Source: Lingula anatina
Lineage: Eukaryota > Animalia > Brachiopoda
Assembly: GCA_051362555.1 (NCBI GenBank)
Contig: CM120647.1
Location: forward strand, 372,001-436,000
Length of the DNA stretch: 64,000 nt
Direction of reading: 5' to 3'
The position numbers and the translations under genes were made by a program. Shown piece by piece: positions 430 through 44,000 of this stretch. Position 1 is the stretch's first letter. Each line of letters opens with the position of its first letter. The notes beneath the pieces are model-generated. The model was given only the letters and a program-made list of their open reading frames with translations, made no database searches and had not been told where the DNA came from.

Positions 430-471
<42 letters not shown>

Positions 472-2602: not shown

Positions 2603-2634
<32 letters not shown>

Positions 2635-17600: not shown

Positions 17601-17726
17601 TACATAAAGCACACTTGTTGATATTTCCCTGTAAACTCCCAAAGGTAAAGCTCTCTGCTAGATTAATAATAAGGAAGCAATGATAATTATGCAGGTAAAT
17701 TTTGTTTAATATTGCAAATAAGTTTT

Positions 17727-17802
<76 letters not shown>

Positions 17803-20800
17803 AAGATTAAAAGTTTGAATAGCAGCTTCATTGGAATTATATTTACCTATGCCAAGGAGGTTATATTTTCACCCCTGTTTGTCTGTCATCAACATAACTC
17901 AAAAAGTTATGGACCAATTTTGCTGAAAATTTCAGGAACTGTCAGAAGTGGGCCAAAGAGGACAATAATCAATTATAATCAACAATTGCTGCCTTGTTAA
18001 TTTTTTTCTCATACACTGGCATTTGTGACTTATAACTTCCATCCACCTGAGGCTCTGCTCATTTTCTGTATTTCCACATAAGCAGTTGTATTGTTTTTTA
18101 TGTCTTTAAACATTATGTTATATTATTTTATGCACTGTCATCATTTTTCAAATATTGAGACTTTCATCATTGGTCTCTAATGGTCCTGAAACTGTAATCT
18201 TATTGAAGGGGTGGATTGAGACCATCTTCTGGGTCTTCCGGAAGACAGTCAGGTTATTAAGTTTATATTGACTGGTATCTGTTTTTTTTCTGTTGGAAGA
18301 CCTTCAAAATGGAGGATGGATCAAAATAGATACTTTGGATTACTGTCAGAAAATATCTCTGGATCTGCTCCTGTTATGGATCTGCTCCTGCCTGGGCAGA
18401 GGTCTGCACTCTCAGAGTGCTTTTCTAGTTTTGTTTATTTTCCTTAATAACTTTTTTCTCAAACGCTTGCATTTGTGATATTTAACCGCCTGAAGCTCTG
18501 CACATTTTCTGTATTTCCACATAAGCAGTTGTATGTTATTTATGTTTTCAAACATTATGTAATATTATTTTATGCACTGTCATCATTTTTCAAATATTGA
18601 GACTTTCATCATGTGACTTTGGTCTCTCATGGTCCTGATACTGTAATCTTATTGAAGGGATGGATTGAGACCATCTTCTGGGTCAGCTTCCGGAAGACGT
18701 TCGGATTTTTAAGTTTATATTGACTGATATTTATTTTTTTTCTGTTGGAAGATCATCAAAATAGAGGATGGATCAACAAAGATACTTTGGAATACTGTCA
18801 GAAAATATCTCTGGGTCAGCTCCTGTTATTGACCATGTTACCTGTTGTGCATGATTAAAATTCAGTGTTGACTAACAGTGCTATTATAAGCATTATTTAT
18901 TATTGCATCAAAATTGGCAAAATGACCTATTTTGCATCATTATTTTCTGTTTTTTGTCTGTACATTTGACAGCTTTGCTGCCTTGTTTATCTTACCATAA
19001 CCATATAGTAGGTAGTGGAGGACTTGTTTATTTATTTTGCACTGATACTTGTTTACCATAGTAGTTTAAAGTGCTATTAGGATCAATAGTATGTGATCTT
19101 TGCACTATATTGTAAGCACATTTGAGATTTGTATCCAGGCACATTTGAATACAACATGGGTATGCATCTATCACCCCTGTGTTATGGTAATATTCTATCA
19201 TGATCTGGTTTACTTCTATATTATATATAATGTAGAGCCAATAGACCATATAAGGCATTTATTATTCCTTAATGTATTGGCATATATTAGGGAGGTTTTG
19301 CAAACAACACAGTATGAGTACACAAAGCCTAGTTGTACTTGGTACTTCATAGAACAGTTTCACATATATGTAATGAAATGGGAACATGAAAACACTGGAG
19401 GTCGCTAGTGTATTATTTGGCAGCAGTGAAAAAGATGCTCAGTTGAAAACATAATTTCTTTTTTTTTCACATGAAATAAGCCATCATGAAGGGATTCAAA
19501 TGGAAAAAAATTCATTTGCCAAAAAAAAAAAAAAAAAAATGAAATAAATTTTTAATGTGTTTGTATTGAATATGAACTCAATTTTTTACAAAGATTTCTT
19601 GAAATCTTTATGAGTTGCTATGGCAAACTACAAAAATGTCATAGTGACTTAAAAGTGGTGGCTTAGTTCTCAATATTCATACTTGGTAGTGTGTTGTTTG
19701 CAAAGTCTCCCTATTCCCTCCATTATGTGTGGTCTGTTGCTGTTTACTGAGCTGATCACAGCACATCTGTTATGTCTTATGTCTTGTTATTTTGTATTTC
19801 ACTTTGTAGAAATGTGTACCAAGCTTGGTTTAACTTGTGTGTGGTACTTTCAGCAGTATTTTTTAAACCTCCACAGCATGTTTTACAACTGAAAAGTTAC
19901 TTAATTTTAGTAGCACTAGATACAGTTGCTTATATTCACTCTCTCTTTATAAATTAAATTAAAGCACTCAGAAAATATTATGGAGGAGAAAAGGAAAGGG
20001 AAAATACTGTAGAATGTTTTTAATTTTACTGTATCCAAGAGACACAGAGGTTGTCATGGCAACCTAATCAATATGCTGTTAAACATATTAACTTGGTATC
20101 TTTTCCCGATTTCCGCTCCATTCCAGGCATTTGCTGCAGGAGGCGATTACTCTGGTGTCTGCCTTGCTCACCTGTTTACATTTCAAATCATAGGGCGTGT
20201 CTCCACTAAGACCCTGGGGACCCTGGGGCTGTCCTATGTGGCCTCTGCCAACCCTGGGGACAGGGGAGGGGTCTGCTCCAAAGGTACTTAATGGGTGCTG
20301 CCCCCTATTGTCTAGGCATGGTATATAGTGCTGCCCCCTATAATCTGGGCATGATATATAATATTGTGTGATACAGGGCTGTATCTAGACACTGCCTGTA
20401 CAGGAAAGTCTTGGCATGTAGCTTTGGTTTATTATTAGTGCTTGTAGTTGAGAATTCATAGGAAGTTTCCTAGCTTTGGTAACCAAGTATAAGCAAAAAC
20501 CACTCTGCTGTAGCGTGATTATTGCAAATGTCTTCCTCATTATAGTCAGGAAAAAATGGGTAAATAAAAATCAGCACATGCTACAGTTGTAGACAGAGTT
20601 TTGAAAACTGTGTTGATTAGTTACAAATATCAAATGGTACTTATTTTGGTAGTATATTTTCAAAAGTTTGTACTCAAAGTCAGACACAGTGTTACAGTTG
20701 ACTTACTGACTTACTGAATTTTAAATAATTTCTTTCAGATTTTACTAATGAAGCATTGTTTTGAAAGCTCATAGTTCAGTTTTGTTCAGTTGTAGTGAGT

Positions 20801-23800
20801 GTATATCATGATACTGTATGTTGTGTAGGATGCAGACATGATGCCCCTTATCAATACAGTAGATATATGTATTGGCTGGTAAAGAAATAACATTTCAGGC
20901 CTTCACTAATCCATTGTTATGCAAACCATGTATCAACAAATAACATCAAATTAACAGAGACACCTTGAAATGGTCTACTTGTATCATAATTTTATTACAT
21001 CTTACCCGAAGTTACCTATGTCAGCTGCATGCAGTGTACTTATTACACTCCTGCCCCTTACTAACAGTGTTTGTCACACCCTTGCCAAAGACTTGTCATC
21101 CTCTGTTACCCACATGTCCCCCAGTCACCCACATGTCACCTTCCTGCCACCCACATGTCATCTACATGTCACCTTCCTGCCACCCATATCACCTACATGT
21201 CACCTTCCTGTCACCCACATGTCATCTACATGTCACCTTCCTGCCACCCATATCACCTACATGTCACCTTCCTGTCACCCACATGTCACCTTCCTGTCAG
21301 CCACATGTCACCTTCCTGCCACCCACATGTCACCTTCCTGCCACCCACATGTCACCCACATGTCACCTTCCTGACACCCACATGTCACCCTCCTGTCACC
21401 CACATGTCACCTTCCTGCCACCCACATGTCACCCACATGCCACCTTCCTGACACCCACATGTCACCTTCCTGTCACCCACATGTCACCTTCCTGTTAGCC
21501 ACATGCCACCTTCCTGTCAGCCACATGTCACCTTCCTGTCACCCACATGTCACCTTCCTGACACCCACATGTCACCTTCCTGTCACCCACATGCCACCTT
21601 CCTGACACCCACATGTCATCTTCCTGTCACCCACCCTTATCTTCCTGTCACCCACATGCCACCTTCCTGTCACCCACATGTCATCTTCCTGACACCCACA
21701 TGCCACCTTCCTGTCACCCACATGTCACCTTCCTGTCACCCACATGTCACCTTCCTGTCACCCACGTCACCTTCCTGTCACCCACATGTCATCTTCCTGA
21801 CACCCACATACCACCTTCCTGTCACCCACATGTCATCTTCCTGTCACCCACATGCCACCTTCCTGTCACCCACATGTCATCTTCCTGTCACCCACGTCAT
21901 TTTCCTGCCACCTAAGTGTTAAACCCCTGTCACTTACTACATCGTCATCTGAATACAAAGTTGAAAGCATGTGTATGCTGCATGCCGAGTGCCAAGTGAA
22001 TAGCACAGTATAACCTTCATTACTACCAAACATTTATTATAATTTAATTAATTCATGATATATAAATGGCTATTTATATAATGTAATAATAAGGATATGC
22101 TTACTCATTCATATAGGGAAATGCCTATTTATTGAGCTTCAAACATAAAGGCTACTAGTAAAAGATGTGTAAGCATAATAAGTAAATTTCATTTAGTGTT
22201 TTAATTAATAGCTTTTTGTTACCAAGTTTTCATCAATGTCTGTTTTGTTTAATGTTGTTATTAATTTCATCAGTTAACTTCAAATTGGAAATAAAAAAAA
22301 ACTAAAACCACCTATTAATCCATGATTAGGTAAAACCATTAATATAATGCGTAATATTTGACAACTTTCAACTGAAAATTGACCTACTTTTACAGCACTT
22401 TACAGATCTCCCAAATTTGGAAATGGTAAAGACTACAAGCTATTCCCAGTGTTTAGCGTTGATATATTGGCATTGTAGTTATATATAATATAATATATAC
22501 ATATAGTCAGGAATAGTGTACATTGATATCTTGGACATTGTTTGAGCTAGGAGTGAGTAGAGATGTGTTATAACATAACTAGGATTCTGTGACATCTGCT
22601 GCTATAGTACTCTGTTATTATCAATTCTATGTTCTCCTTTCTTGTTCCTTTGATATTATTATATCATAACCATTTTGAGGCCCTCTAGTTTGGGTTTAAT
22701 TATTTCAGTCATGTAGGAGTTATTTCAGAATCTTTTATTATTCACTAACATGGTAGTCTGCTTTAGCTTTCAATTATTATATTGATTTCTATTGACATAT
22801 TTTGCAGTAAATATTAAGATACTAAATGGCTCTGCATAACAGCTTTAGTCTCACTTTTGTATGTTTGTATGTTTTCTTTTTATTTCTATTCAATTATTTA
22901 TGAAAACTTCAAACTATGAAGACTTACTAAAGCTGCATCTATTATATTTTTAGACATTTAGGCACACTCTCCTTGCAGAGGAGAACTGGCCAGAGCTTGC
23001 GTCTCTTTGCCTGCTGCACCTCTTCACATCCATAGCATTTCCGTCAGGAATTCGAGGCCTTGCTGTAGTTGGGGGTCTCTGCTCAGCAGCGGCAAGGGGT
23101 CCCGGTTTGTTATCTGTATAAATGTCGTCTGCTGCTTTTTTCTGTAATTATTTGCCAAATTAGTTCCATTCTCACATCTGTCATCTTTTATACCTTCAAT
23201 GATGATCCTTTCAATTGTAACAGATTTTCACGGGTGCATGGACCCCCTGCTTTCAGTGTGGAACTCCCACTGTACATTGTTGTCTGATTTGTGCTGGAAA
23301 TGTCTCTGACGGTGATGAGGGAGTGTGTCTGTCTCCTTTCTTTTATCAACTTGCTGAAATCAGAATGAAAACAGGAAACAGATTACTGCAGCTAGTCATT
23401 TGAACATTGATTCTCTGCAATTTTTTTTGAATACAATTTTCTATGCACCCTTTATTTCTTTGATCTTAGCACAAATAGTCCATAACAGAGATTGTAAGTG
23501 GAAGTGCTAACACATGAAACTAGGTGCTATCAGATGCAGAAGTTGTCAAAGAGGAGCACCAAGCACTTGTTAGTTAACAGTTTCTGTTATATATGTTTCA
23601 AATACAGGTACATTGAAATGCACCTTCAATTAGTGAATAACTTCAAGACAGCAGCAGGCTCTAGGTCTCAGTGGCTTGGTATCACCTGACCAAAGATGTC
23701 CAGGGATATGTGTGCACACCTGTAGAATTCTACACCTGACACTACACCTGACACTACACCTGACACTACAGCCTGTGCCTCTGTTATTGTATTTATAGGT

Positions 23801-26800
23801 ATTTGGTCGAGACGCTACATTCCGTGATTTCTGTCTGGCGCACCTGTTCACCTTCCAGTCCTTCTCAGGTGGCGTCCTCGGCCTGGCGTATATTGGATCG
23901 CGGCGCAGGGGCACGCTGGGAGGCGTCTGCTCCAAAGGTGAGGCTACAACCAATCAGATTTGTTCATTGTCGTGCTCCCCGCATGAAACTAGAGGTGGCA
24001 TGTTTTCTCGTGTTCCTGTTGTAATAATGAGATGCTGAAAGCCGCCATGTTTATGTTTGCTCTTAGCTGTGCTCGTGTGCATGTAGACATATGTGAACTT
24101 TTACTCAGAAAGCATGAACTGCCAGTGATAATATGTATATATATATATATGGGGCCATTCCCAGACCCTATCGTACTAACTGTGGATCGATCGATCTCTG
24201 AGGGGATTCTCTCTGAATTGCCATCAACTTAAGAGGTTTACTTGTCTTTCATGCCTTCCAAAGCTGCTATTGGGGTAATTAATTATGGTTAAGCAGCTTA
24301 AGTAGACGCACCAGACATGTAAGCCACTTAAGCTGAAAGCAATTTATCAAGAAAACCCTTGGAGATGGATCGATCCTGTTAGATTGATCTAGGTATGGGA
24401 ACCCAGTCTACGTGTGTGTCCTCATGGCTCTCTTGTACAGATGGTACTTTATACCCCTATGTTCAGGTAATGATTTCTAGCAGACCCCAGCTTAAGATAA
24501 AGTAAGGGAAAGGTTGGTCTCTGGAAAAGCTGACTGTAAATCTAATTTGCATGTAAGCAATTAAAATCTGCAATTATATTTAGCACTTTTTGGGGATTTA
24601 AAAACAAGCAAAACAACACAGTGTAACTTAAGAGATAGAAAAGTACTAATTGAACTGTAACTATGAACTTATTCTATTATACTTCCTTCTTTTACTGCTT
24701 TTCAAAAATCTTATATTTTCATCATCTTGGTGTTGGGATATGACTTGTTAAAGAAAAAACGTATTATGAAATGAAACAAGGATAATACCACAAATATCAT
24801 TTTTATTTTTATTTTATATATTTATTACATTAATACACCTATAACATATATATAATATAAATTGTCATAATATTAGGTGAGCCAATCACAAATTTGACAG
24901 GTAATTAAGACCAGCTTATTTCAAGGCCACTGATTGACAATAATACGCAATACTCAGTTATAAATTGCTTCTGACAGGTAGATAAAATCCAACGTGACCA
25001 GTTTCTCAAGGCTATTGATTGACAGCTTGAGGCAATTGACAGCCAGTCTCCTTTGCTTGTGATTTTTAGCTCAGATAAGAGGCTGTCAGACTGTTATTTT
25101 TGTCATGGCATTTTTCACTGATTAGTGCCTACCCCGGTGTTATAGGTGTATAAGTGTGATAATATATATATGATATTTCACGTCACCTGGACACATAACC
25201 ATCTAAAAGCTTGTCACAATATAAAAGAGATAAATCATTGCACAGCTATCGTGGTTCGGTACAATTTATTTGTTAGTTGCAAACTACTTCCTGGTTTCCA
25301 CGAGGTCCTTTAAGGATTCTAAAACATTGATATAATCGCAGAACATACCGTAAAACGCACAAAATTAATAAGATATGGGCATATCAGTTTACAAACATGC
25401 AAAAACTGCACATGACAACAATTTACAGCCTTGTAGGAATTCTTTTCCTTTGATGCTTTTTGTCGCGCTGTCGGTTGATGCAGCATATATTTCAAAACAA
25501 ATTGACTGCAAATTAAGCACAATTTTGCACTTTCAGGTTTTGTAACACGTTTTCATATCACGTACCAATTATTTCTACAAGTATTCTCTGCCCAAAATGC
25601 CAAAAAAATGTTATCTCACCGTGTTGTTGGAAAAAACGCTTTTTTCTCTGAACCCACGTCTGCACTCTGTTCACCTCCAGCTAAAATGACCACTCAGCTT
25701 CTTGTTTACACCACTACACGTCAGTTCCGGCACAATTCTGTCTCCTCCGGTTTCCTCCATTAGAGGTTACAACCATGATTTTGAGACACTGTACCAGATT
25801 TCTTTAATAATATATTCATTTTTTTGTTCAGCACTTTGCTTGCTGCTAGCTTACATATATTAACATGGTTGCACTGTATATATATTAACACTGAATGTTG
25901 TGCTGCATGAACTTTCTGTATGCTGTTTTTCAGGCTCATACTAGCATATGAAAGTTTTGCTGAAATACTTTATATTGGCTCTAGAAAGCTTAGAAGTAGA
26001 AGTTTTTTGGCAAATAATCCTTTAACTTAAAAAAAATCATATATAGAGTTATTTGACATAATAAAAAAGCCAATATGCTAGCATCTATCTACATTATAAT
26101 AGCATTATGTTGCCAGTAGAAAACTTGCTCAGTTATCACTCACAGACTGCCTGTAAAGTACTAATACAACATCAGTGAATGGTAGACATAACTGCACCCA
26201 TAAACCAGCTGTTACATACTTATCCAGTAATACTAAATATAGATATTAACCCACCTGTCTTCTATTATTTAATTTTCTTGGTATATGATCTAACATATAG
26301 CTTGTCTTGAGACCTCAAACTTGTTTTGAGGACTTGGGATTGTCTTGTAGTTGACCTCCACCTGGTGGGCTTGTCTTGTAGTTGACCTCCACCTGGTGGT
26401 ATTCTTGTGTGTCTCAGTTTTATTGCCTTTTGGCCTTGCTGACAAACCCAAGGTTTGAAAGTTTTCTAACCAACATATTAACAAATAAAGGGTACAGAAA
26501 AAAATACCAAAAAAAAAAAAAAAGGTTACTGTAAAATTGAATGAAGTTCGAAAAACTTTAGAATTGGTCTCAATATTAATAGAAATACATAAATATTTTA
26601 GTATAATTTGGAAAAATTGAAGGAATATGAGAAGTTTAACTGAGACACGCTCCCTCCAATGATGTCTGTCTGTAGTTATTTGTATCTCTGTGGTTCTCTG
26701 TAAAAGCTAGTATTATGTGGGTGCAGACAGTGAACAGATTTAGTTGTAGCCTTACCTTTTCTGCTCCTTGGGGACCTTTGTATGCTTTTATCTTACAGTT

Positions 26801-29800
26801 TGACAAGATACAATATTTCATGTCTATTTATTATACCTTTGTGGAATGTGTTGTTCCTCTGGAACACTGTCGTTATTTTGCAGGTCGAAAATGTAGTAAA
26901 AATCATTTAAGTATGAAAAGATTTAAAAAACAAATACCAGATGGTACTGTGTACCCAAGACACCCCTACATGTTCAAGGGCAAGCTGCTGCAGAAGAAAT
27001 ACCCTAATAACTTTTTACTGTAACTTTCACTGTTGTAACTAAAAATACTATCCCCTTGTTTTATTCCCGTTTTCACTGATAGAACATTATTGTATTTTTC
27101 ACATAAATTGTTTCTTCCAAGTTAACCCCAGTTTTGAAGGGAGATTATTTGGAGCTTCCAGTTTCAAATTCTTTCTCGGAAGAAGTTCCGAATCTCCATA
27201 AGCCAAATTGCATGTACCCGAAGTTTGTGAAAAATTTTACTGATACCTGAAAGTAACAAAAATTCAGCCTAGTTGGCCAGAACAGAAACTAAGCATATTG
27301 GCAACATATTGAGTTGGTTTTTTTAAGGATAGACAAGTGCACTTTGGTAAGAAATTTCTGTCCTTTTTCTTATGACAATCATACATGTTGTCATGGTAAC
27401 CAGAGTCATCCTCGTAGTAGCCATTTTATATTTCTGCAGCTATTCTTTGATGTACAGTGCCTCCTTTAGCATTTTTTAGTACTAAGGCTTTTGTTTGTCT
27501 TTTTTTTATGTCATATAATTCATTTTTAATTTCTCCTCTGTTTTTATTATTTGTTTACATACTTGGTATTTCTTGCTCTTTATTACCACCATATTTTGAT
27601 AAAAGTGAGAAGGGATGATTTGAGCTTATTTCTTTGTAATGGTCTCTTGTTTGATATATCTGTATTATTATTTGACTTGATGTTGTAGATGTTGGTATTA
27701 CATGTGTTCATTCTGCAGTTAATCAGGACAATTTCTGCAATGAGACATTGCTTTACTGGCAACAAATAATGTTTATAAAATGTCTTCATCCATGTCAGTT
27801 ATTAAAACTGATTTGCTGCAGCGTAGAATTTATTGATTATATTCATTATTATTGTGTGGCAAAGTGAGTGTTGGTTTCATTGTATCCCCTCCATATTAAC
27901 TCTCCCCCTCAGTGTTGCCCCTCCTCAATGTTGCCCCCCCCCATTCCTCTTGTTCACAACCTCTTAACCTCTGATAGGATTTAGTGTTCTATCTATTTTT
28001 ATGACGGCTAATTGTAGTCAGTGTTTTTATGAGTCCGTGAGAAAATTATTCTGGTTATATGATAAAGCACAGCCTGCTTGGTGTCAGAAATGAATATTTC
28101 AAAACTGCTGACTCATGATGGCTCCTGACCATTAACAGCAGTTCAAGAGATGATCGTTATGAGTTCTGGCTTTGGGTGTGGGTCCATATCTCCCAAAACT
28201 TACGCTGTCAAGAAAACAATCAGCACAGATATCCTTGATACTCATCCCCCCCCCCCCCCAAATAACCTTGTTTCATAGTAATGAAAATTTCCAAATTTTC
28301 ACCATTGATACTAGTAAATATGGCCTCCATCTCTTGAACTGTCCTAGCTTACTGTTATATATCCTTAATGTAATACCTTTACTTATGATAGATGTTAATT
28401 CCTTATTTTTGGTAACATTGTGCATATGTCTGCATTTTACACAGCCTCATGTCTCTAATTTTTGCCATGATGATCATTTTTTATCCTGGCATTATAAATC
28501 TTGAGAATTGCAAAATTCAAGTTGCTACTACCATTGATTGATTGTGATTTTAATTTAAGCAGATCTCATTTTGAATTGAAAAACTTATTAAAACTTTGCC
28601 ACCTTTCCTGTATCAATAATTTTTATCATTCAGTGAACAAAAATCTTATTATATGTTTGGTTGAAAATACACACATACATTCCCACATTGTCTTTCTTTT
28701 TGGAGTATCAGTTGAAAAATGTGAACCATTATCATATGATTGCCTTGTTTATGTACCAACTTAATGATTTAATTTTTGTTTATTGTATACCAAAGTGAGG
28801 CTTCTGTCTGGACAGGAGCCTCATTTCAGCACCAACCAAAACATCCTTTCTGTCATCTGCTTCAGGCATCAATCATGAAATGATAATACATGAACAGACA
28901 AAAATCAAAATTTCAGTAAGATTTTGTTCATTGAATGATAAATCTGTGACCCATATCCCTGTGGCCTACATTTCCAAGGGATGTGGGTCACTGCTGGCCA
29001 GTGTAGTCCCATATCCCTGTGGCCTTCATTTCCAAGGGATGTGGGTCACTGCTGGCCAGTGTAGTCCCATATCCCTGTGGCCTTCAGTACCAAGGGATGT
29101 GGGTCACTGCTGGCCAGTGTAGTCCCATATCCCTGTGGCCTTCATTTCCAAGGGATGTGGGTCACTGCTGGCCAGTGTAGTCCCATATCCCTGTGGCCTT
29201 CAGTACCAAGGGATGTGGGTCGCTGCTGGTCAGTGTAGTCCTGTATCACAAAGAAATTTCATAACTTGTAATGTTGCCAGAACAACATATTTGGTATAAA
29301 ACAAGTATGTAAAAAATCCGATATATTATGTTAGTATTTTGAGAAAAATAATAAGTCAGATGCTTTCATTCTGTAAAGTATTTTGAAAAAGAAGGTAATG
29401 AATGTCTTGAATTCTGAATTTTCTGTAATATTTAACTATATCAACTCTTTGACCTTCACTATGATACACATGGTGTTGAAAAGATTAACGGAGTGTATTC
29501 TCTGTCCTGCAGCATATTACAAGGGAGGTGCTGACATGTTCCTGAACACAGGGTGGTCCTCAGCAAAGAACAGGAATAATGAGAGAATTCTTACACAGGA
29601 AGCTGACCTGGTGACTGCCCATGGTGGGTGTGAATGTGTTAGATGTGACAGTGAGATGTGAATGTGTTAGATGTGACAGTGAGGTGTAAATGTGTTAGAT
29701 GTGACAGTGAGATGTGAATGTGTTAGATGTGACAGTGAGGTGTGAATGTGTTAGATGTGACAGTGAGGTGTGAATGTGTTAGATATGATAGTGAGGTGTG

Positions 29801-32800
29801 AATGTGTTAGATGTGATAGTGAGGTGTAAATGTGTTAGATATGATAGTGAGGTGTGAATGTGTTTGATGTGATAGTGAGGTGTGAATGTGTTAGATGTGA
29901 TAGTGAGGTGTGAATGTGTTAGATGTGACAGTGAGGTGTGAATGTGTTAGATATGACAGTGAGATGTGTTAGGTGTGACAATGAGATGTTATGCGTGACT
30001 GAGGGATGAATGTGAATTGGAAAAAATTTGATGGCAGATTTAAATAGAACTTCAGGGGTCAATTTATTTATTTTATAACATGAAAGTTCACTTTTTGTTG
30101 ATGATTTTATTTATCTTTATTGTTAAATGTTTTGACATTGGTTTTACTAACTTACTAATACTGATACATTTTTTGTTTTTCTTTCTTACATGATTGCAAT
30201 GGCAGAATTTGGTAAGTCTGTTTAAAGGTAGTTTACTTTAAACTGATTTAGATTCGTTGTTTTGCTAATGTCCACTGTTCCTAAACTGAAGTTTTTGTTA
30301 CTTTCTCAGTTAGTAAAGTTAGTATTTTTGAAATAAAGCATACATACTTTGTTGTTGATAATTAGATGAAAATTTGATGGATTTTTGATTTGAAAAATGG
30401 TTTTGAATCAATGGATATGCCATCATTTATTTCAAGCAGTAAGCTTTCATGGAACTTGTTTAGTATTTACATTGCTTATACTAACTTGCTTATTCTGACT
30501 CTTTGGATCTTAACCATGACCTTGTTTTTTTGTGTCAAGGTCATAATTGGGGCAGTGAACACGACCCAGACTCTGAGGAATGTTCTCCCAACGCCTTTAA
30601 TGGCGGCAAGCACATCATGTACACGTACTCTGTGTCAGGATATGAGAAAAACAACAAGGTAATATAACACTTAATACATATCATGTACACATACTATTGA
30701 ACACTATTATTGAACTTGATCCATGTACACAAAAATGTGTTATTTTTTGTTAAGTACTGGAGTAAATTTTGGCAAGGCATAAGTTTCTTATTGATAATTG
30801 ATATTTCCTTTTTGAGAAGTCTTGATATATGTGTATTCCCCTTATTGCAGATCTTCTCCCCTTGCAGTAAGAGAGCTATGGGGGAGGTGCTGAGAGCCAA
30901 GTCTGCTTCTTGTTTTGTAGGTAGGTATATGCAGTAAGAGAACTATTGGGGAGGTGTTGAGAGGCAAGTCTTCCTCCTGTTTTGTAGGTAAGTATATGTA
31001 GTAAGACAGCTATGGGGGAGGTGTTAAGAGCCAAGTCTGTCTCTTGTTTTGTAGGTAAGTATATGTAGTAAGAGAGCTATGGGGGAAGTACTGAGGGCCA
31101 AGTCTGTCTATTGTTTTGTAGGTAAGTATATGTAGTAAGACAGCTATGGGGGAGGTGCTGAGAGCCAAGTCTGTCTGTTGTTTTGTAGGTAAGTATATGT
31201 AGTAAGACAGCTATTGGGGAGGTGCTGAGAGCCAAGTCTGTCTGTTGTTTTGTAGGTAAGTATATGTAGTAAGAGAGCTATGGGGGAGGTGTTAAGAGCC
31301 AAGTCTGTCTCTTGTTTTGTAGGTAAGTATATGTAGTAAGAGAGCTATGGGGGAAGTACTGAGGGCCAAGTCTGTCTATTGTTTTGTAGGTAAGTATATG
31401 TAGTAAGAGAGCTATGGGGGAGGTACTGAGAGCTAAGTCTGTCTCTTGTTTTGTAGGTAAGTATATGTAGTAAGAGAGCTATGGGGTAGGTACTGAGAGC
31501 CAAGTCTGTCTCTTGTTTTGTAGGTAAGTATATGTAGTAAGAGAGCTATGGGGGAGGTGTTGAGAGCTAAGTTTGCCTCTTGTTTTGTAGGTGAGTTTCT
31601 GGATGATTGGGTTTTAAATGTTGGAAGTAGCTAAAAAGTACACCCATGAAAGAAATAGATCTTGTTTACCTTATTAACAAAAATTTTTGTCCTGAAAGCT
31701 TGGTAGGAGCGTGCAGACATACAACATTAAATACCATTTTTCAATGTTTAAGACCATTTTTAAATGAAGGAAACCATTTAGAACGATTTTATAACAAAAG
31801 CATATATAGATTAATATACCATGTTTCACCTGAATTTCTTACTTTTTCCATGTCTGTTTCAGAGCCGTCCCAAAGTTACTGCGGCAACTACATCCGTGAG
31901 GAGAATGAAGAGTGTGATGCAGGGTTGGAGGGAAAATCAGGCACGGATCACTGCTGTACGGAATCATGCACTTTGAGACAAGGGGCACAGTGCAGGTACA
32001 GGAGGCAAAGTTGACCAGTTGAGATGTACAACATGAACAGTCTAAAAAAGTTTTCTTTTACAAATATATATTTGAAAAACTATAAATTCATTTTTTTTTT
32101 GATAAATTTTTTTCACAGGAAAATTAGTGCTTAAGCTATGTTATGTGTAATCCGTGCTTTGTTTTCCAGTCACATCAACCACGCATGCTGTACACATCAG
32201 TGTGTGATTGCAGGACCAACGCAGTTGTGTGAGGCTCGCCCAGACGTCAACCTCGCCTGCGAGAAAAATGCCTACTGCAAATATCCTTGTAATACCCATT
32301 AATCTTGTCCTTATGTTTCAAACATGTTGATTATGTGGTGAAAGTCTACACATGCCTAGCTGGGGTAGCGCTAGCAATTTGTTTGCTTAGCCAAATCACC
32401 ATTTTTTGGTCAATTTGTTATCAGAATGGTTATAATTTGACTAAAACAAGTCAAATCAAGCCCGTTTTGTATAACCAATTAAGGCCAGTTTTAGCATTTG
32501 GCTTAATTGGCGAGTGTTAGCGCTACCCCAGCCTAGCTATACATGTAGTTAGAAATGAACATTTCTGCAGATAATGCAAATCTCACCTTTCTGAAATTTT
32601 ATTTCTCTGTTATACTCTACAACATAATACCAGTAAAATATGTGATGAACTGTTCAGGATGAGTTAAATGATTAGTATAGATTTTTTCTAAGATCATAGT
32701 TGTTTGCCTACCTTAAAACTGATAGCCAGTTTTCTCAGTGCTGACCGTCCACCACCTCCAACATTATTATTGAAGTAATTATATTATAGTAAGAACAATG

Positions 32801-35800
32801 AGGTTGTTTGTCTTAACTGCTTTCACTGGTCTAGATAAGGACTGCCCACCACCTCCTAAGAAAGACAATGGGGATCCTTGCTTTGACAGGTACTTGTTCT
32901 GTACACTTACTAAATATATATATATACACACATGCACTGAGTATACACATGCATGTGCTCATACACGATACACATACATTGACATGCATGAATGAAAGGG
33001 ATATGGAGCGATGTTTGAATCAACAACTATCAATATGCCATTGGTTAACTAGTCACCTGATAGTGAGGAAGATTTGAAGAAATTGTACTTGCTAGATTTT
33101 GTCTGATGAAATCCTGTAGTGATTTACACAAGAAGAGAACTCCAGATAACATTGAACCTATTTGTGGATGCTTATTTAAATGTACATATAATTAATTCCT
33201 ATAATTTATGTAAAATTTAAGTGTTGTACTCCTTATTCTAGAGGAAAGTGCAAAAATGGAAGATGTCAGCCATTTTGTGAGACACTTACTCCTTCTCAGA
33301 TACCCTGTGTTTGTGATAAAGGTAAGCTGATATATGTTGTTATAACATGAATGTGATAAAGGTAAGCCAATATATGTTGTTATAAATATCTAGGTCACTG
33401 ACCTACATGTTTCTTTTTATAAAATATCCAGGTCACTGTGACCTATATGTTTCTATTTATAAAATATTCAGGTCACTGTGACCTACATATGTTTCTATTT
33501 ATAGTGGAGGATTCCTGCCTGTGGTGCTGCCAGGCCAACTCCAGTGCAGAGTGTGTGCCATTTGTAAACCAAACCACCAAACTGATGCTGGATCTTCCTG
33601 ACGGAAAACCCTGTTTGCAGGGATATTGTGTTGGGGTAAGGGTGCATGTAAAGTGAGATTTACTCTTCCCCTGTAGCCCTTTTACTACAGATATTTTCCT
33701 ACAATTGCATATATATTATCAGCATAAAATGGTAGATTTGACCTCTGACTTCTTACCTGTGGGCAAGCAATTTGGCCTCAGGGCCAGTCATGTGACCCCT
33801 GACCTCTAGGTCAGCAATTTGACCTCTGGGCCAGCCATTTGACCCCCTGACCTCTAGGTCAGCAATTTGTTCCTTTGACCTCTGGGCCAGCAATTTGACC
33901 TATGACCTCTATGCCAGCAATTTGACCTATGACCTCTGGGCCAGCCATTTGACTCCTGACCTCTAGGTCAGCAATTTGATCTCTGTGCCAGCAATTTGAC
34001 CTATGACCTCTGTGCCAGCAATTTGACCTATGACCTCTGGGTCAGCAATTTGACCTCTGACCCAGTTCTAGAGTTGGCAAATGAACCAAGGAATATCCAT
34101 AAAGCTCTGAAATATGTATCTTTTCCTGGACTTCATAAAAATGTTTTTTTAACCTGGAGTCTCATTTCTACTCTCAGCTGACGACTTAAGAAACAAGAAT
34201 ATTTCTGTTTGTAGGGAAGCTGTAAGCTGCAGAGAGAGTCCCTGACACAGAGATTCTGGAGGATCATTGAAGAGTTCTCTGCTGATGCCTTTGGTGAGTT
34301 TTTTATATTTACATTATTGTACCACCAGCGTTAGCGCTGGCGGTACACATGGTTTCGGTCCCGTCCGGATCGTTCCGCCGGCTCCGCCGGCTCCGCCAGC
34401 TCCGCCGGCTCCGCCGGCTCCGCCGGACGGCTACCGTTACCGCTTCTCCTCCTAGACGGTAAGGGCCCCCGTACCCATCTCATGGATTTAGGTCACCTAT
34501 AATCTCAACTCGTTCCACGTAAAATTTGGGCTTTGTCGGTATTGGGGTCTGGGTGTGGCACTCATTACAATGCACCCTTGTCTAAAAATGGCAAAATTAA
34601 ATGCTAATTATCTACCCTACGGAAGGAGTTATGGGAAAAATTTCTATAGACGGCCTTCCAAAAGTCATATGTGTAGATTTCAAATATACCCTTGGATTTG
34701 ACCTTTGACCTTTACTTCAAGGTCAAATGGGTCAAAATTTTCAAAAAAATGAAATTTTTTACGAAAAAAATTTTTTTTGCCCTGTTATTCAGACACTACA
34801 CAGACTTAACCAATAATATTATTGGAAAGTGTTACCCTTCAGGTCATCTTTCATCTCCATGAATTTGGGGTCAATCGGTGCATTTTCACGGGAGTAGCGG
34901 CCATAAGATACCGAAACTGAAAACTGTCTCTAATTCGGGAACCGTTAATGCTAGAGACCCATTCTTTTTTGCATTTTGTAGAGCATGTAAAGCCCAACAC
35001 TGGAGGTGGTCTCGGTTTTTTTGTATTCCATACGGTTTTCGAGTTACGCTGTATCAAAAAGTACATATTGGTGGTAAAAGCAAAATGTGCAGTACGGTAA
35101 TGGATAATAAATTTTGAACTCTGGAAAAATAAAACATAAGGCTTGGCAAAGCAGACAACTTGTGTTCAAAAATGACATTATTTCATCAAATTTGAACTTC
35201 TGAAACTTCAGGGCACCTCCTATTTCAAGAATTTTGACCAAAATGACATTTTCTTTATTTTAATTAATTTTTTCTGTACGAAATTTAAGGCACATTATGG
35301 TAACTCCAAAATTATAACATTTAGTCCCTTATATCTCCAAAACTGGCAGAGATAGGTCCATAGTTACTATTGAAGTTGAATAGGAAGTCATATACTGGCA
35401 ATCTTACTGTGATCTTAAAATTGACCTTTGACCTACTTTTCACCATGAAATGAACTTTGCAAATTTTGCTTCCCTTTTATCTCCAAAACTGGCTGAGATA
35501 GGTCCATAGTTAGTATTGAACTTGAATAGAAAGTCATATACTGGCAATCTAAATGTGACCTTGAAATTGACCTTTGACCTACTTTTCACCATGAATTGAA
35601 CTTTGCAAATTTTGCTTCCCTTTTATCTCCAAAACTGGCAGAGATAGGTCCATAGTTACTATTGAACTTGAATAGGAAGTCATATACTGGCAATCTATAT
35701 GTGACCTTAAAATTGACCTTTGACCTACTTTTCACCATGAACTGAACTTTGCAAATTTTGCCTTCTTTTATCTCCAAAACTGGCTGAGATAGGTCCCTAG

Positions 35801-38800
35801 TTACTATTGAACTTGAATAGGAAGTCATATACTGGCAATCTATATGTGACCTTAAAATTGACCTTTGACCTACTTTTCACCATGAACTGAACTTTGCAAA
35901 TTTTGCCTTCTTTTATCTCCAAAACTGGCTGAGATAGGTCCCTAGTTACTATTGAACTTGAATAGGAAGTCATATACTGGCAATCTATATGTGACCTTAA
36001 AATTGACCTTTGACCTACTTTTCACCATGAACTGAACTTTGCAAATTTTTCTTCCCTTTTATCTCCAAAACTGGCAGAGGTAGGTCCATAGTTACTAGCG
36101 AACTTGAATAGGAAGTCATATACTGGCAATCTAAACGTGACCTTAAAATTGACCTTTGACCTACTTTACACCATGAACTGAATTTTGCAAATTTTGCTTT
36201 CCTTTTATCTCCAAAACTGGCTGAGATAGGTCCGTAATTACTATTGAACTTGAATAGGAAGTCATATACTGGCAATCTATATGTGATCTTAAAATTGACC
36301 TTTGACCTACTTTTCACCATGAACTGAACTTTGCAAATTTTGCTTCCCTTTTATCTCCAAAACTGGCTGAGATAGGTCCATAGTTAGTATTGAACTTGAA
36401 TAGAAAGTCATATACTGGCAATCTAAATGTGACCTTAAAATTGACCTTTGACCTACTTTTCACCATGAACTGAACTTTGCAAATTTTGCTTTCCTTTTAT
36501 CTCCAAAACTGGCTGAGATAGGTCCGTAGTTACTATTGAAATTGAATAGAAAGTCATATACTGGCAATCTAAATGTGACCTTGAAATTGACCTTTGACCT
36601 ACTTTTCACCATGAATTGAACTTTGCAAATTTTGCTTTCCTTTTACCTCCAAAACTGGCAGAGATAGGTCCATAGTTACTATTGAACTTGAATAGGAAGT
36701 CATATACTGGCAATCTAAATGTGACCTTAAAATTGACCTTTGACCTACTTTTCACCATGAACTGAACTTTGCAAATTTTGCTTCCCTTTTATCTCCAAAA
36801 CTGGCTGAGATAGGTCCATAGTTAGTATTGAACTTGAATAGAAAGTCATATACTGGCAATCTAAATGTGAACTTGAAATTGACCTTTGACCTACTTTTCA
36901 CCATGAATTGAACTTTGCAAATTTTGCTTTCCTTTTATCTCCAAAACTGGCAGAGATAGGTCCATAGTTACTATTGAACTTGAATAGGAAGTCATATACT
37001 GGCAATCTAAATGTGATCTTAAAATTGACCTTTGACCTACTTTTCACCATGAACTGAACTTTGCAAATTTTGCTTCCCTTTTATCTCCAAAACTGGCAGA
37101 GATAGGTCCATAGTTAGTATTGAACTTGAATAGGAAGTCATGTACTGGCAATCTTACTGTGACCTTGAAATTGACCTTTGACCTACTTTTCACCATGAAC
37201 TGAACTTTGCAAATTTTGCCTTCTTTTATCTCCAAAACTGGCTGAGATAGGTCCCTAGTTACTATTGAACTTGAATAGGAAGTCATATACTGGCAATCTA
37301 TATGTGACCTTAAAATTGACCTTTGACCTTCTTTTCACCATGAACTGAACTTTGCAAATTTTTCTTCCCTTTTATCTCCAAAACTGGCAGTGATAGGTCC
37401 ATAGTTACTATTGAACTTGAATAGGAAGTCATATACTGGCAATCTAAATGTGACCTTAAAATTGACTTTTGACCTACTTTTCACCATGAACTGAATTTTG
37501 CAAATTTTGCTTCCCTTTTATCTCCAAAACTGGCAGAGATAGGTCCATAGTTACTATTGAACTTGAATAGGAAGTCATATACTGGCAATATAAATGTGAC
37601 ATTAAAATTGACCTTTGACCTACTTTTCACCATAAACTGAACTTTGCAAATTTTGGTTCCCTTTTATCTCCAAAACTGGCAAAGATAGGTCCATAGTTAC
37701 TATTGAACTTGAATAGGAAGTCATATACTGGCAATCTAAATGTGACCTTAAAATTGACCTTTGACCTACTTTTCACCATAAATTGAACTTTGCAAATTTT
37801 GCTTCCCTTTTATCTCCAAAACTGGCAGAGATAGGTCCATAGTTACTATTGAACTTGAATAGGAAGTCATATACTGGCAATCTAAACGTGACCTTAAAAT
37901 TGACCTTTGACCTACTTTTCACCATGAACTGAACTTTGCAAATTTTGCTTCCCTTTTATCTCCAAAACTGGCAGAGATAGGTCCGTAGTTACTATTGAAC
38001 TTGAATAGGAAGTCATATACTGGCAATCTAAATGTGACCTTAAAATTGACCTTTGACCTACTTTTCACCATAAACTGAACTTTGCAAATTTTGCTTCCCT
38101 TTTATCTCCAAAACTGGCAGAGATAGGTCCATAGTTACTATTGAACTTGAATAGGAAGTCATATACTGGCAATCTAAATGTGACCTTAAAATTGACCTTT
38201 GACCTACTTTTCACCATGAACTGAACTTTGCAACTTTTGCTTCCCTTTTATCTCCAAAACTGGCAGAGATAGGTCCATAGTTACTATTGAACTTGAATAG
38301 GAAGTCATATACTGGCAATCTAAATGTGACCTTAAAATTGACTTTTGACCTACTTTTCACCATGAACTGAATTTTGCAAATTTTGCTTCCCTTTTATCTC
38401 CAAAACTGGCAGAGATAGGTCCATAGTTACTATTGAACTTGAATAGGAAGTCCTATACTGGCAATCTAAGTGTGACCTTGAAATTGACCTTTGACCTACT
38501 TTTTATCATGAAGTGAACTCTGCTAATTTCTTTCTCTTTTAACTTCAAACTTGACAGAGATAGGTCCATAGTTACTCTTGAACTTGAATAGGAAGTCATA
38601 TACTGGCAATTTTCTGTGACCTTGAAATTGACCCTTGACCTATCTTACAAAGAACTTAAATTTGATTGTACCATATATATTTTTTGCAATAGTTTAAAAA
38701 TTCTTGTTGATTGCATTTTTACAGCTTGTCAAGCACAAAACTGGTGGCTGTGTCCCTTATTTTGTGTATGTGGGGGTCTATACGAATGCGCTTGCTCCAG

Positions 38801-40957
38801 CTGGTGGTACAATATTCGGAGGCGGTATCGCCTCTCTGATCCTCTAGTGTTATTAAGTCTCTTACACAAAGTTGGGTAGTTAAAGCATTAAAGGACTCAA
38901 ATTAGTTGAAAGTCATAATAACTCTTCGTTTTGGCCAAAAATACGATTTTTTCTGGAAAAAACGGGAATTTTCCCGTACTTACCAATGGTCAACGACCCC
39001 ATTCCTGCATTCAAAGTTAATCCAGGGTTTTTTCCTAAACGTACAGTTTTTTTGTTAAAATCTCTTAAGGGATTTTAACTGACGGAGCCCTCTCGTATCG
39101 AGCGATAGTTTCTGGTGATCTGCTTAAAACCGCGGGAAAAGCAGACAACAACAACACTATATAACAATATTATAAGATTCATAAGATATGTTTGTCTTTT
39201 TGCTCAAAATACATTTATATCTACAATGTGTGCAATTCTGGGCTTTTCGTTATCCGACGCACTGTACAAAAACTCCCAACTTACGTCTGAGGGTTTCCCG
39301 CCATGATATTTTGGTCTCGAATGGACGCGAGAATCCGCGTGACACCTAAACGTCCTTGGCAACGGATGCACTTATCGACCGCGAAGAAAGGCATGGAAAG
39401 CCCAAGTGACAAGCACAGATTTTAGTTTTACTACAATAACAGTCGTTTTAGTGGGAAAATGCAATAGAATATATTTCCAGGCGTTGTTTACAATGTATTT
39501 CTTGCGGAATTTTGAATCTCAAAGGAAGAGTTATTATTGCTTTAAAATCAATAAAATAGTGTTTATTTTTTTGGCCGATTTGACACCAGTAATTAGTAAA
39601 TGTAAAGCTAACTTCTTGCTCCTTAATCTGTTGATTGTCCCCTAAGTTCTTTAGTTATAGTTATAATGTGAAGGTTTCTTGACAATAATTGGTAAATGTA
39701 AAGCTTTCTTACTGTTTCATAGTTTGTTTACTGTTTCATCATTTGTTTACTGTTTCACAATTTCTTTACTTTTTATGTACAGACACAGATGTGTCTGTAC
39801 ATATAGCCATCATCTGCGTCTGTCGTCGCCGTCGCCGTCGCCGTCGTCGCCGTGCACTTTTACCGATAACACGATAAGTGGAAAACTGTTTTTTCTTTTG
39901 GCTTGAAACTTACAGAACTGATTAATATTCGTAATACGCAGGTCAAGTTCGAAAATCAGCATGATCGGGTCACTTATAGGGAATTTATGCTGTTTTTTCA
40001 CTTTTTTCAGCATATATGCAGCACCGATAACACGATAAGTGGAAAACCATGTTACCTTTTGGCTTGAAACTTACAGAACTGATTAATATTCGTAATACGC
40101 AGGTTAAGTTCGAAAATCAGCATGATCGGGTCACTTATAAGGAATTTATGCTGTTTTTTCACTTTTTTCAGCATATATGCAGCACCGATAACACGATAAG
40201 TGGAAAACCATGTTACCTTTTCCCTTGAAACTTACAGAACTGATAAATATTCATAATACGCAGGTCAAGTTCGAAAATCAGCATGATCGGGTCACTTATA
40301 GGGAATTTATGCTGTTTTTTTACTTTTTTCAGCATATATGCACCACCGATAACACGATAAGTGGAAAACCATTTTACCTTTTCCCTTGAAACTTACAAAA
40401 CTGATAAATATTCATAATACGCAGGTCAAGTTCGAAAATCAGCATGATCGGGTCATTTTTAGGGAATTTATGCTGTTTTTTCACTTTTTTCAGCATATAT
40501 GCAACCCCGATAACACCATAAGTGGAAAACCATTCTACCTTTTGGCTTGAAACTTACAAAACTGATGAATATTCATAATACACAGGTCAAGTTCAAAAAT
40601 CAGCATGATTGGGTCATTTTTAGGGAATTTATGCGTTTTTTTCACTTTTTTCAGCATATATGCAGCACCGATAACACCATAAGTGGAAAACCAATTTACC
40701 TTTTGGCTTGAAACTTGCAGAACTGATAAATATTCATAATACGCAAGTCAAGTTCAAAAATCAGCATGATTCGATTATTGTTAGGGAATTTATGCTGTTT
40801 TTTCACTTCTTTCAGCATATATGCAGCACTGATAACACAATAAGTGGAAAACTGTTTTTTCATTTGGCTTGAAACCTACAGAACTAATGAATATTCATAA
40901 TACGCAGGTCAAGTTTGAAAATCAGCAAGATCGGGCAATTTTTATGGAAGTTATCCT

Positions 40958-41009
<52 letters not shown>

Positions 41010-44000
41010 AGCACTTTTATAACACCAATAACATGATAAGTATAAAAATGTTTTTCCTTTTGGAGTGAAATTTACAGAACTGGTGAATATTTATAATACG
41101 CAGGTCAAGTTTGAAAATTGGCATGATTGAACTAATTTTACAAAAGTAATGCTGTTTTTTTCCCTTTATTCAGCATACATGCAACACTGATAATGCATTT
41201 TAAGGAAAACCAATCAGCCTTTCGTCTTGCAACTCACAGGAGTGATCAATCTGACCAGTATACAGATCAAGTTTGAAAATAAGCTTGATCAGTTAAGTTT
41301 TGATGAAGTTATTAGCCTTTTTGTATATAAGTGGTTTTTCTTCAGATTTAATTCTTAAGCATGTTAACAGTCTCATTACGGAACTAATTGGATATGTAAA
41401 AGTGTTGTTTTAACATTTTCTGCTTCTTAACAATATTGTTAGTTGATTATATAAAAATGACGGTAAACCTATTATCGTGCATTGTGTAATAAAGTATCAA
41501 AAATGGAAAGGAACTCATCATTGCAGTTCGTCAGATTCAATCATTCACTATGTTCAGAATCTCCAAATGGAGCTAATTGGACATTATAAATTGTTCTATT
41601 GCTATTTTTCCTATGTCAACAATTTTCCTAGTTGATCATTTAAAAATGACAGTTAATTGATTATGGTTTTATGTAAAAAAGGTGTTGAAAATGGAAAGAA
41701 AATCATTTCAGTACAGTTATCTCTTGTTAACATTTTGGCATTTTGAAAGTGTGACCCTAACTTCCATGTCCTTGGAGACCTTTCCATATCACATTTTCTG
41801 AATATCCATGATACTTATTTTTTTATAAAAAAATTGATGGTCATTATGTTGTTAAGTATTATGTTATATTGCATGAAAGTTAAAGAAAACCCTATTTTGG
41901 ACACTGCTGCCAGGATAGCCATTAAGGGAAAACCATGTTACTTATGATAATCAACCTTACTGAAAAGACTGAAGTGCAGCTTGTGTTGGAAAACCATCGT
42001 AATTGTTTTCTGTTTTGAAAGCAATGCAGTACAGTGCTATTTGGTGCAATAAATGTATATGGATAGTAGGCAGTTAATTCAGGGTTATAAAATAATTTGC
42101 TTAATTGATTTTCAAGTTATTTCAGGGTTATAAAATAATTTGCTTAATTAATTTTCAAGTGGGCATTAAATGAGATTACATAAACACACATTGAGATTTC
42201 ATTGTAAAGTCCCATCGGTTTAGCTTTCTTAACTGTGTCACATAATTAGGAATCGATGATTATTATGCAGGTAAATGTTATTTAATATGGAAAATAAGTT
42301 TACAAAAAAAATTTTGTGTAAGGCTTACATTAATGCTAAAGATGAATAACAGTGCCTTATTATTCTCAAACTCAATAGGGTTATTCATATCATTTTAGTA
42401 ATTGTACAGCTAGATTAAAAGTTTGAAAAGCAGCTTTATTGGTATTTTTTGTTATGTTTTATTTTACATTTTCTTTTAATTTTTTATGCTGTTTTTTCAC
42501 TTTTTTCAACATATATGCAACATTAATAACACAATATAAGAAAAATAGCTTAGCCAATTGTCATTATATTCACAGGAGTGGTCAATCTTACAAAAATGCA
42601 GGTTGAGTTCGAAAATCAGCGTTATCGGGCCATTATTTTAGAAGTTGTACTGTTTTTTCAAATTTCCTCAGATTCAATTCTTAGGCATGTTAACAGTCTC
42701 ATTATTGAACTAATAAGATACGTGAAAGTGTTTGTTTGATATTTCCTGCATCTTTACAACATTGTTAGTTGATTATGTAAAATTGATGGTAAACTTGTTA
42801 TCATGTATTGTAATCAAGTGTCCAAAACGGAAATAAACTCATATCTTTGCAGTTTGTCAGATTCAATCATCCACATCTGCCATGATGACCATGATGGGAA
42901 AACCGTGTTACTTAAGATTGTCAAACTTTCAAAAAAGAAACATAGGACTAAAATGCAGCCCGAGTTGGAAAAGCAGTCTGATGGGCTTCTTTTTCTGGAA
43001 GTTATACATTTTAGTGAAATATTCATTATCTTTTTGGCATATTCATTGTGGGACTCGGAGCTCCCATGGACATGAAGCCGGATGGTAATCAAATTTTCTA
43101 CATGTTCATGCTATTTATAGTCAATAATCAAAAATTTTATTCTATAATTTATTATGTAATGTTACATCAAAATTGACAATAATCTTTTTGCACTGCTACT
43201 GCAAACATTATGAAAAGAAAACTGTGTTATTTATTATTATATTTAACTTAAGAGTGTGATTTTTAGGATTGGCATGCAGTTCAAATTAGAAAGCCAGGTC
43301 AATTGGGTTATCATTTATTATTGAATTTAATGCAATTTTGTGTGAAATTTCATTTTGCTCATTCTGGCACTTTCTAAGTATAAACTTGAACTCTGATGGG
43401 CCTGAAGCCTTATGCTTTTACTTTCGTCGGTGTTACCTGTTGTGCAAAATTAAAATTTGATGTTGACTGTGCAGTTAAACATAATGTATTATTGCATCAG
43501 AAGTGGTGGTCTCCTATTTTGTGCATATTGTTTTGTGCTCTTCTTAAGTTGTGACTTATGGGCCTGAAAGACCTTTGAGAGGGTCAGTCTATAAATTTCC
43601 CTTGGGTATCACTTCGCTAATTTCAGTTATAAAGTAATTTGCCTAATTGATAGGCTACATAAAGCACACTAGTGATTTGAGATTACATAAAGCACACTTG
43701 TTGATATTTCCCTGTAAACTCCCATAGGTTAAGCTCTCTGCTAGATTAATAATAAGGAAGCAGTGATAATTATGCAGGTAAATTTTGTTTAATATTGCAA
43801 ATAAGTTTTTAATATATATATATATATACATCAAACTGAAAGATTAAAAGTTTGAATAGCAGCTTCATTGGAATTATATTTACCTCTGCCAAGGAGGTTA
43901 TATTTTCACCCCTGTTTGTCATCAACATAACTCAAAAAGTTATGGACCGATTTTGCTGAAATTTTTTTTCACTTTTCAGCATATATGCAACACTGTAAAC

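What the first reader, a model, noticed from the sequence alone, without database searches (positions are those of the whole stretch)
29513..30658. Catalytic glutamate of ADAM17 sits on a frame-neutral 6-nt microexon: a possible splicing on/off switch for the sheddase
Seen in sequence: the flanking exons join as [12 protein letters not shown], with no catalytic Glu. Between them lies GGCAG|AATTTG|GTAAGT (30206-30211), which restores [12 protein letters not shown] exactly. It has a perfect donor, TACTAAC about 60 nt upstream, a long pyrimidine tract and a TGC about 9 nt before the AG. Established: Glu in HExxH is the general base of metzincins, and UGC near the 3' splice site typifies microexons promoted by SRRM4/Srrm234 eMIC proteins in neurons. 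Inference: skipping is in frame, so no NMD is expected, and it yields a full-length, membrane-anchored but proteolytically dead ADAM17. That could allow tissue-specific switching between an active sheddase and a pseudoprotease. Automated annotation would likely miss the exon and call the protein inactive.
Basis: partly seen in the sequence, partly recalled or inferred. Interest (0 to 1): 0.9.

Follow-up and report, generated by a model that had tools for sequence, protein, structure and literature searches.

The report
Six-base exon carries ADAM17's catalytic glutamate
In a brachiopod, the key catalytic residue of the protein-cutting enzyme ADAM17 sits on a real exon only six bases long that was present in every informative RNA read, so it is likely an always-included, ancient gene quirk that trips up gene prediction in other animals rather than an on/off switch.

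Summary
The exon is real; the switch is not supported. The 6-nt exon (30206-30211) restores HEFGH, matching human E406/L407. In six informative RNA-seq runs from two studies, 52 of 52 listed junction reads include it; none skips it (95% upper bound on skipping 6-11%; tissues not given). All three full-length RefSeq models of this gene (Lingula anatina) already contain it. It is conserved: 21 of 21 metagenome host loci with both flanking exons hold exactly one such exon (0.83 expected by chance). Other relatives keep only one of the two introns or neither, so the glutamate is often hard-wired. Five genome-based models (two annelids, two bivalves, a sea spider) lack exactly these two residues, most likely by mis-annotation. 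A fold prediction suggests skipping would unwind the zinc-binding region, not give a clean pseudoprotease. The eMIC-like splice signals are real, but near-complete inclusion argues against neuron-only regulation. Closest precedent: the 9-nt active-site mini-exon of plant invertases. The annotated alternative splicing of this catalytic domain is a mutually exclusive exon pair upstream.

The parts
85..46913 (+). ADAM17 gene, start codon to last stop codon (prodomain, reprolysin-type catalytic domain, disintegrin, ADAM17 membrane-proximal domain, transmembrane helix)
   Evidence: RefSeq isoforms mapped exon by exon; Pfam; PDB ADAM17 E=2.5e-146 versus ADAM10 2e-40
29513..29623 (+). Upstream exon; ends with His1 of HExxH plus the first base of the Glu codon; non-consensus donor GTGGGT
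29627..29968 (+). 28-nt tandem array (12.2 copies) directly after the upstream donor
30145..30165 (+). Cluster of three branch-point-like motifs (TACTAAC, TACTAAT, TACTGAT), 56, 48 and 42 nt before the microexon
   Evidence: use as branch point inferred
30169..30188 (+). Pyrimidine tract inside a long AG-free zone (30087-30203, 117 nt)
30195..30197 (+). TGC motif near the acceptor
   Evidence: function untested
30206..30211 (+). 6-nt microexon (phase 1-1): completes the catalytic Glu, encodes Phe and the first base of Gly
   Evidence: 52 of 52 listed junction reads; RefSeq models; conserved in 21 of 21 loci
30212..30217 (+). Consensus donor GTAAGT of the microexon
30479..30485 (+). Second perfect TACTAAC, 56 nt before the downstream exon
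30540..30658 (+). Downstream exon with His2, His3 and the Met-turn
20127..20283 (+). Mutually exclusive exon A (157 nt, variant type; RefSeq X1, X3)
23799..23937 (+). Mutually exclusive exon B (139 nt, canonical type; RefSeq X2; majority form in reads)

Best explanation
The 6-nt segment is a spliced microexon that supplies the catalytic glutamate of a brachiopod ADAM17; it is likely constitutive, and likely exists because two old introns sit six bases apart in the HExxH motif. Shown: it is included in all listed junction reads, and relatives carry both introns, only the first, only the second or neither. Inferred: both introns were present in the protostome ancestor and were lost separately in several lines. 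Where both remain, selection keeps strong intronic signals (consensus donor, distal branch points, long AG-free zone, UGC) so that the exon is not skipped, probably by removing the two introns one after the other. Skipping would be a splicing error giving a locally unfolded, inactive protein.
For: Inclusion in 52 of 52 listed junction reads: X4 9, X7 4; X5 12, X6 12, X8 10, X9 5; consensus agreement 0.98-1.0. Runs X8 and X9, mostly 90-95% alike to the window, carry the same 6 nt. 3 of 3 full-length RefSeq models include it. 21 of 21 loci with both flanking exons hold exactly one candidate; 0 of 22 intervals (window included) on the reverse strand; 0.83 expected. 4 loci have only the first intron, 3 only the second, 21 neither. 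Long intronless ORFs P0127 and P0157, which group with the microexon loci (support 99 and 100), carry HEF/HEL. The microexon acceptor has the longest AG-free zone of 23 acceptors tabulated, and 2 of the 5 plus-strand TACTAAC in the gene flank it. PMC7821500 (passages) reports that constitutive microexons have the strongest splice signals. Predicted active-site helix is 386-400 with block pLDDT 82-92 when included; the skip-type model ends the helix at the first His and falls to 43-58.
Against: Tissues and conditions of the runs are not given; 4-12 reads per run allow 22-53% skipping in any single run; only 6-30% of each run was read; groups under 3 reads at another position are not listed. Five genome-based models lack exactly these residues, one of them an oyster model named like RefSeq entries; real skipping there is not excluded. 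TGC near the acceptor is kept in 20 of 27 microexon acceptors versus 6 of 27 downstream acceptors, which fits a regulated exon as well. The sea-spider evidence is from protein models only. The tree is weak for divergent loci and has no ADAM10 outgroup.
Confidence: 0.82

Rival explanations
1. Conditional rheostat: the exon is included by default but partly skipped in some cell type or stress, lowering active sheddase, as reported for the potato invertase mini-exon in the cold.
For: Frame-neutral. eMIC-like architecture is conserved: TGC 20 of 27 versus 6 of 27; AG-free zone 52-134 nt versus 10-86 nt. Cold-induced skipping of the invertase mini-exon is cited in PMC8483784 and PMC3340406 (passages). 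Human E406A is described as inactive and dominant-negative (PMC7042727 passages). Skip-type models exist in five species.
Against: 0 of 52 reads skip. Many relatives have fused the exon to a neighbour. The 27 acceptors are related sequences, so the TGC excess is not 27 independent events. The skip form is predicted to be locally unfolded.
Confidence: 0.12
2. One reading: a neuron-specific, eMIC-dependent microexon; ADAM17 is active in neurons and a pseudoprotease elsewhere.
For: UGC near the acceptor, long AG exclusion zone, strong branch points including the downstream one match the features listed for fly eMIC targets (PMC8797185 passage).
Against: eMIC is restricted to neurons in non-vertebrate bilaterians (PMC8797185 abstract), so bulk RNA should show mostly skipping; six runs from two studies show none. 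Fly eMIC exons have weak donors; this donor is consensus. UGC is neither necessary for nor predictive of sensitivity (bioRxiv 10.1101/2024.09.17.613571 passages). TGC also lies in this position in 4 of 23 acceptor rows of the gene (one row misplaced).
Confidence: 0.04
3. No exon: the gene is a natural pseudoprotease, or the motif is split by an assembly error.
For: Skip-type protein models in databases.
Against: Reads carry the 6 nt; the same two-intron layout recurs in 21 other loci.
Confidence: 0.01

Closest known systems
9-nt mini-exon of plant invertases and fructosyltransferases (DPN of the WMNDPNG motif). Seen: PMC8831610 section 8 and passages; PMC3340406, PMC8483784, PMC4674806 passages. 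The primary papers PMC145944 and PMC1369924 were not held.
   Same: Tiny, phase 1, frame-neutral exon inside an enzyme's active-site motif; conserved; called constitutive; often missed by annotation.
   Different: Plant glycosidase, 9 nt. Cold-induced skipping is reported there; none was seen here. That its Asp is the nucleophile is recalled, not from a call.
6-nt constitutive micro-exon of chicken cTNT and 1-nt exon of Arabidopsis APC11 (PMC4674806, abstract and passages)
   Same: Same size class, constitutive.
   Different: Not reported in those passages to carry a catalytic residue of a protease.
SRRM3/4 and Srrm234 eMIC neural microexons (PMC8797185 abstract and passages; bioRxiv 10.1101/2024.09.17.613571 passages; PMC12871342 abstract)
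   Same: Long AG exclusion zone, distal branch point, UGC near the acceptor, multiple of 3.
   Different: Those are off outside neurons; this exon was on in every informative run and is needed for catalysis.
Human ADAM17/TACE (PDB 8snl, 1bkc)
   Same: Same domains; HEFGH aligns to H405-E406-L407-G408-H409.
   Different: Human exon structure was not tested here; from recall the motif lies inside one ordinary exon.

Membership tests
ADAM17 (reprolysin M12B) | HExxHxxGxxH zinc motif and Met-turn | tested here: met
   Complete only with the microexon; aligns to human 405-415
ADAM17 (reprolysin M12B) | Prodomain, disintegrin, ADAM17 membrane-proximal domain, transmembrane helix | tested here: met
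   PF01562, PF00200, PF16698 above cut-off; predicted helix 667-703
ADAM17 (reprolysin M12B) | Closer to ADAM17 than to ADAM10 | tested here: met
   492 bits versus 142 bits
ADAM17 (reprolysin M12B) | Sheddase activity | not testable with these tools
   Inferred from the intact motif
Constitutive coding microexon | Exon of 27 nt or less between GT-AG introns, used in mRNA | tested here: met
Constitutive coding microexon | Near-complete inclusion in the samples examined | tested here: met
   52 of 52 listed reads in 6 runs
Constitutive coding microexon | Near-complete inclusion in all tissues and stages | tested here: inconclusive
   Tissues not given; 4-12 reads per run; 8 of 9 listed runs laid, 2 of the 8 uninformative
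Constitutive coding microexon | Strong splice signals | tested here: met
   GTAAGT donor, TACTAAC cluster, longest AG-free zone in the gene; no species-trained splice score was computed
eMIC/SRRM4-dependent neural microexon | UGC near acceptor, long AG exclusion zone, distal branch point | tested here: met
eMIC/SRRM4-dependent neural microexon | Skipped outside neurons | tested here: not met
   No skipping read in six RNA-seq runs; caveat: tissue labels not given
eMIC/SRRM4-dependent neural microexon | Inclusion depends on the eMIC domain | not testable with these tools
   Needs knock-down or a minigene

The most novel reading that the evidence does not exclude
A microexon kept since the protostome ancestor holds ADAM17's catalytic glutamate under eMIC-like splice signals and is skipped in a specific cell type or stress, giving invertebrates a splicing brake on EGFR/TNF shedding, while a second, mutually exclusive exon pair swaps the substrate-binding edge of the same active site.
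Probability: 0.1. Interest if true: 0.75.

Novelty: new member of a known kind. Interest (0 to 1): 0.33.

Why it matters
Practical: ADAM17 models of annelids, bivalves and a sea spider that lack the catalytic Glu are probably false pseudoproteases, so surveys of dead ADAMs in invertebrates should check for this exon. Evolutionary: a pair of introns six bases apart in a catalytic motif, apparently kept across brachiopods, annelids, molluscs and an arthropod, is a clean case for asking how a tiny essential exon stays included while carrying eMIC-like signals. It does not show new regulation. The mutually exclusive exon pair may be the better lead.

Tried and rejected
No whole genome is held for this window, so Srrm234 and genome-wide microexon statistics could not be checked. 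No RNA holder was listed by word index; runs came by species label. Runs X1 and X2 gave 2 and 1 reads and no listed loose end; the X2 read ends at 29623 by depth, which fits inclusion, and was not counted. Each lay covered one flank, so no read was scored across both flanks. Other short AG..GT segments in the interval: none gives Glu. Of 54 loci with an intron before the Gly, 17 showed neither the upstream exon nor a microexon within the contig and 13 showed a microexon without the upstream exon; these 30 and the 3 second-intron-only loci were left out of the 21 of 21 count. Best-hit placement of loci was noisy; the tree left L064, L072, L073, L074, L079 on long or weak branches, so no pre-bilaterian origin is claimed. 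Literature: 'microexon'+'ADAM17' gave 3 papers, none on this exon by title or abstract start; searches listed nothing on it or on the exon pair; only listings were seen, the library lacks most subscription papers, and no supplements were read, where microexon tables could list it. Earlier scan findings: none by place, sequence or ADAM words. No complex prediction or fold search was run.

Full report
Observation. The sequence is as described. The exon at 29513-29623 ends with the first His of HExxH and one base of the next codon. The exon at 30540-30658 starts inside the Gly codon. Joined directly they stay in frame but lack Glu and Phe. The 6 nt at 30206-30211, between CAG and GTAAGT, restore HEFGH. 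No other in-frame AG..GT segment of 3-33 nt in the 916-nt interval gives a Glu there; the chance of such a segment is 0.035. The introns are 582 and 328 nt.

The gene. The downstream exon is 100% identical to a RefSeq ADAM17-like protein of Lingula anatina. The RefSeq isoforms map across window 85-46913 with a few substitutions. Pfam finds prodomain, reprolysin, disintegrin and ADAM17 membrane-proximal domains. Against the PDB it scores 492 bits to ADAM17 and 142 to ADAM10, and the two microexon residues align to human E406 and L407. E406A is described as inactive and dominant-negative (PMC7042727, passages). 3 of 3 full-length RefSeq models contain the exon, so annotation did not miss it in this species.

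RNA test. Eight of nine listed runs were laid, each on one flank. Behind the upstream exon, loose ends of 9 reads (X4) and 4 reads (X7) begin with the 6 nt. Before the downstream exon, loose ends of 12, 12, 10 and 5 reads (X5, X6, X8, X9) end with them. Agreement was 0.98-1.0. That is 52 of 52 listed junction reads with inclusion and none with skipping; X1 and X2 were uninformative. The pooled 95% upper bound on skipping is 5.6% for independent reads and 10.9% if all are mates; per run it is 22-53%. Limits: tissues are not given, 6-30% of each run was read, and groups under three reads at another position are not listed.

Conservation. 54 have an intron just before the Gly, 4 only before the Glu, 21 are contiguous and 1 is otherwise split. 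Of the 54, 21 also contain the upstream exon ending at His, and all 21 hold exactly one matching 6-nt exon; counting the window too, 0 of 22 reverse strands match and 0.83 are expected by resampling. These loci are related and partly redundant; nine placed on a tree fall with annelid-type proteins. Three loci (L034, L063, L064) keep only the second intron; L034 groups with crustaceans and insects. Among 312 stored proteins, five genome-based models lack exactly the two residues (Paralvinella, Capitella, Ostrea, Tegillarca, Nymphon) and two read through the donor (Nymphon, Solemya). Long intronless ORFs that group with the microexon loci carry the Glu. I infer that both introns were present in the protostome ancestor and were lost separately; for the sea spider and bivalves this rests on protein models, not DNA.

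Splice signals. The microexon has a consensus donor, three branch-point-like motifs 42-56 nt upstream, and the longest AG-free zone of 23 acceptors tabulated (one row misplaced). Two of five plus-strand TACTAAC in the gene serve its two introns. Across 27 non-redundant acceptors, TGC lies within 20 nt in 20, against 6 of 27 downstream acceptors; AG-free zones are 52-134 nt against 10-86 nt (related sequences, so the nominal p of 0.0003 overstates it). These features match fly eMIC targets (PMC8797185, passage). But eMIC is neuron-restricted in non-vertebrate bilaterians (same paper, abstract), and UGC is neither required for nor predictive of sensitivity (bioRxiv 10.1101/2024.09.17.613571, passages). 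A class of constitutive microexons with the strongest signals is known (PMC7821500, passages). Full inclusion in six runs puts this exon there.

What skipping would do. AlphaFold2 gives the included form a helix over residues 386-400 with block pLDDT 82-92 around the motif. The skip-type Nymphon model ends the helix at the first His, with block pLDDT 43-58 over residues 391-440. The two proteins are from different species and the method is not validated for deletions, so this is a hint: the skip product is more likely locally unfolded than a clean pseudoprotease.

Mechanism. Shown: existence, inclusion, conservation, four intron layouts. Inferred: constitutive use in all tissues, ancestral two-intron state, compensation by strong intronic signals, and stepwise intron removal by analogy with potato invertase (PMC4674806, passage). 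Confidence 0.82. Conditional skipping 0.12; neuron-only eMIC switch 0.04; no exon 0.01.

Comparison and novelty. The closest precedent is the 9-nt invertase mini-exon in an active-site motif, often unannotated (PMC8831610, section 8) and skipped in the cold in potato. A 6-nt constitutive exon is known from chicken cTNT. Searches listed no report of this exon (listings only; supplements unread). Earlier scan notes describe several active-site microexons in other genomes (unchecked, not used as support). This is a new member of a known kind.

Side finding. A mutually exclusive exon pair at 20127-20283 and 23799-23937 changes the catalytic domain upstream of the motif and recurs in annelid-type loci and models. 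It is the annotated alternative splicing of this active site and deserves its own look.

Verdict. Observation confirmed, interpretation partly supported, interest 0.33.

Noticed in passing
window 20127-20283 and 23799-23937: Mutually exclusive exon pair in the catalytic domain, covering the stretch that aligns to human residues up to K367 including G346-V353 (the substrate-binding edge strand, recalled). Both or neither would shift the frame. RefSeq X1/X3 use A, X2 uses B. Read consensus is B; agreement 0.89 (13 reads) and 0.91 (8 reads) would fit about 4 and 2 A reads (inferred). Tandem copies also occur in L018, L020 and the Paralvinella and Owenia models; order is variant-first here and in Owenia, canonical-first in L018, L020 and Paralvinella.
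   Followed up: partly
P0004, P0011, P0042, P0262, P0312; P0125, P0245: Five database models lack exactly the two microexon residues; two more read through the upstream donor into intron. Likely annotation errors at this exon.
   Followed up: partly
window 30866-31596: A 67-nt tandem array (10.9 copies) repeats the 3' end of exon 30851-30920 with its donor, creating about ten decoy donors.
   Followed up: no
window 45901-45933 and 46803-46913: Alternative last coding exons give two cytoplasmic tails (RefSeq X3 versus X1/X2).
   Followed up: no
L012, L018, L020, L051 versus L049, L054, L056, L062: Two clades of annelid-type ADAM17 loci both keep the microexon, each with its own conserved upstream intron sequence, often with a GCATG-like motif.
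   Followed up: partly
runs X7-X9 on window 29513-30658: Reads of study P3 differ from the window at many exon positions (X8, X9 mostly 90-95% alike), and the window differs from the RefSeq protein at several residues: high polymorphism or cryptic species under one label.
   Followed up: no
window 13745-15336, 35325-38642, 10305-10965, 39862-40964: Large intronic satellites of 146-nt and 161-nt units recur in two places each.
   Followed up: no
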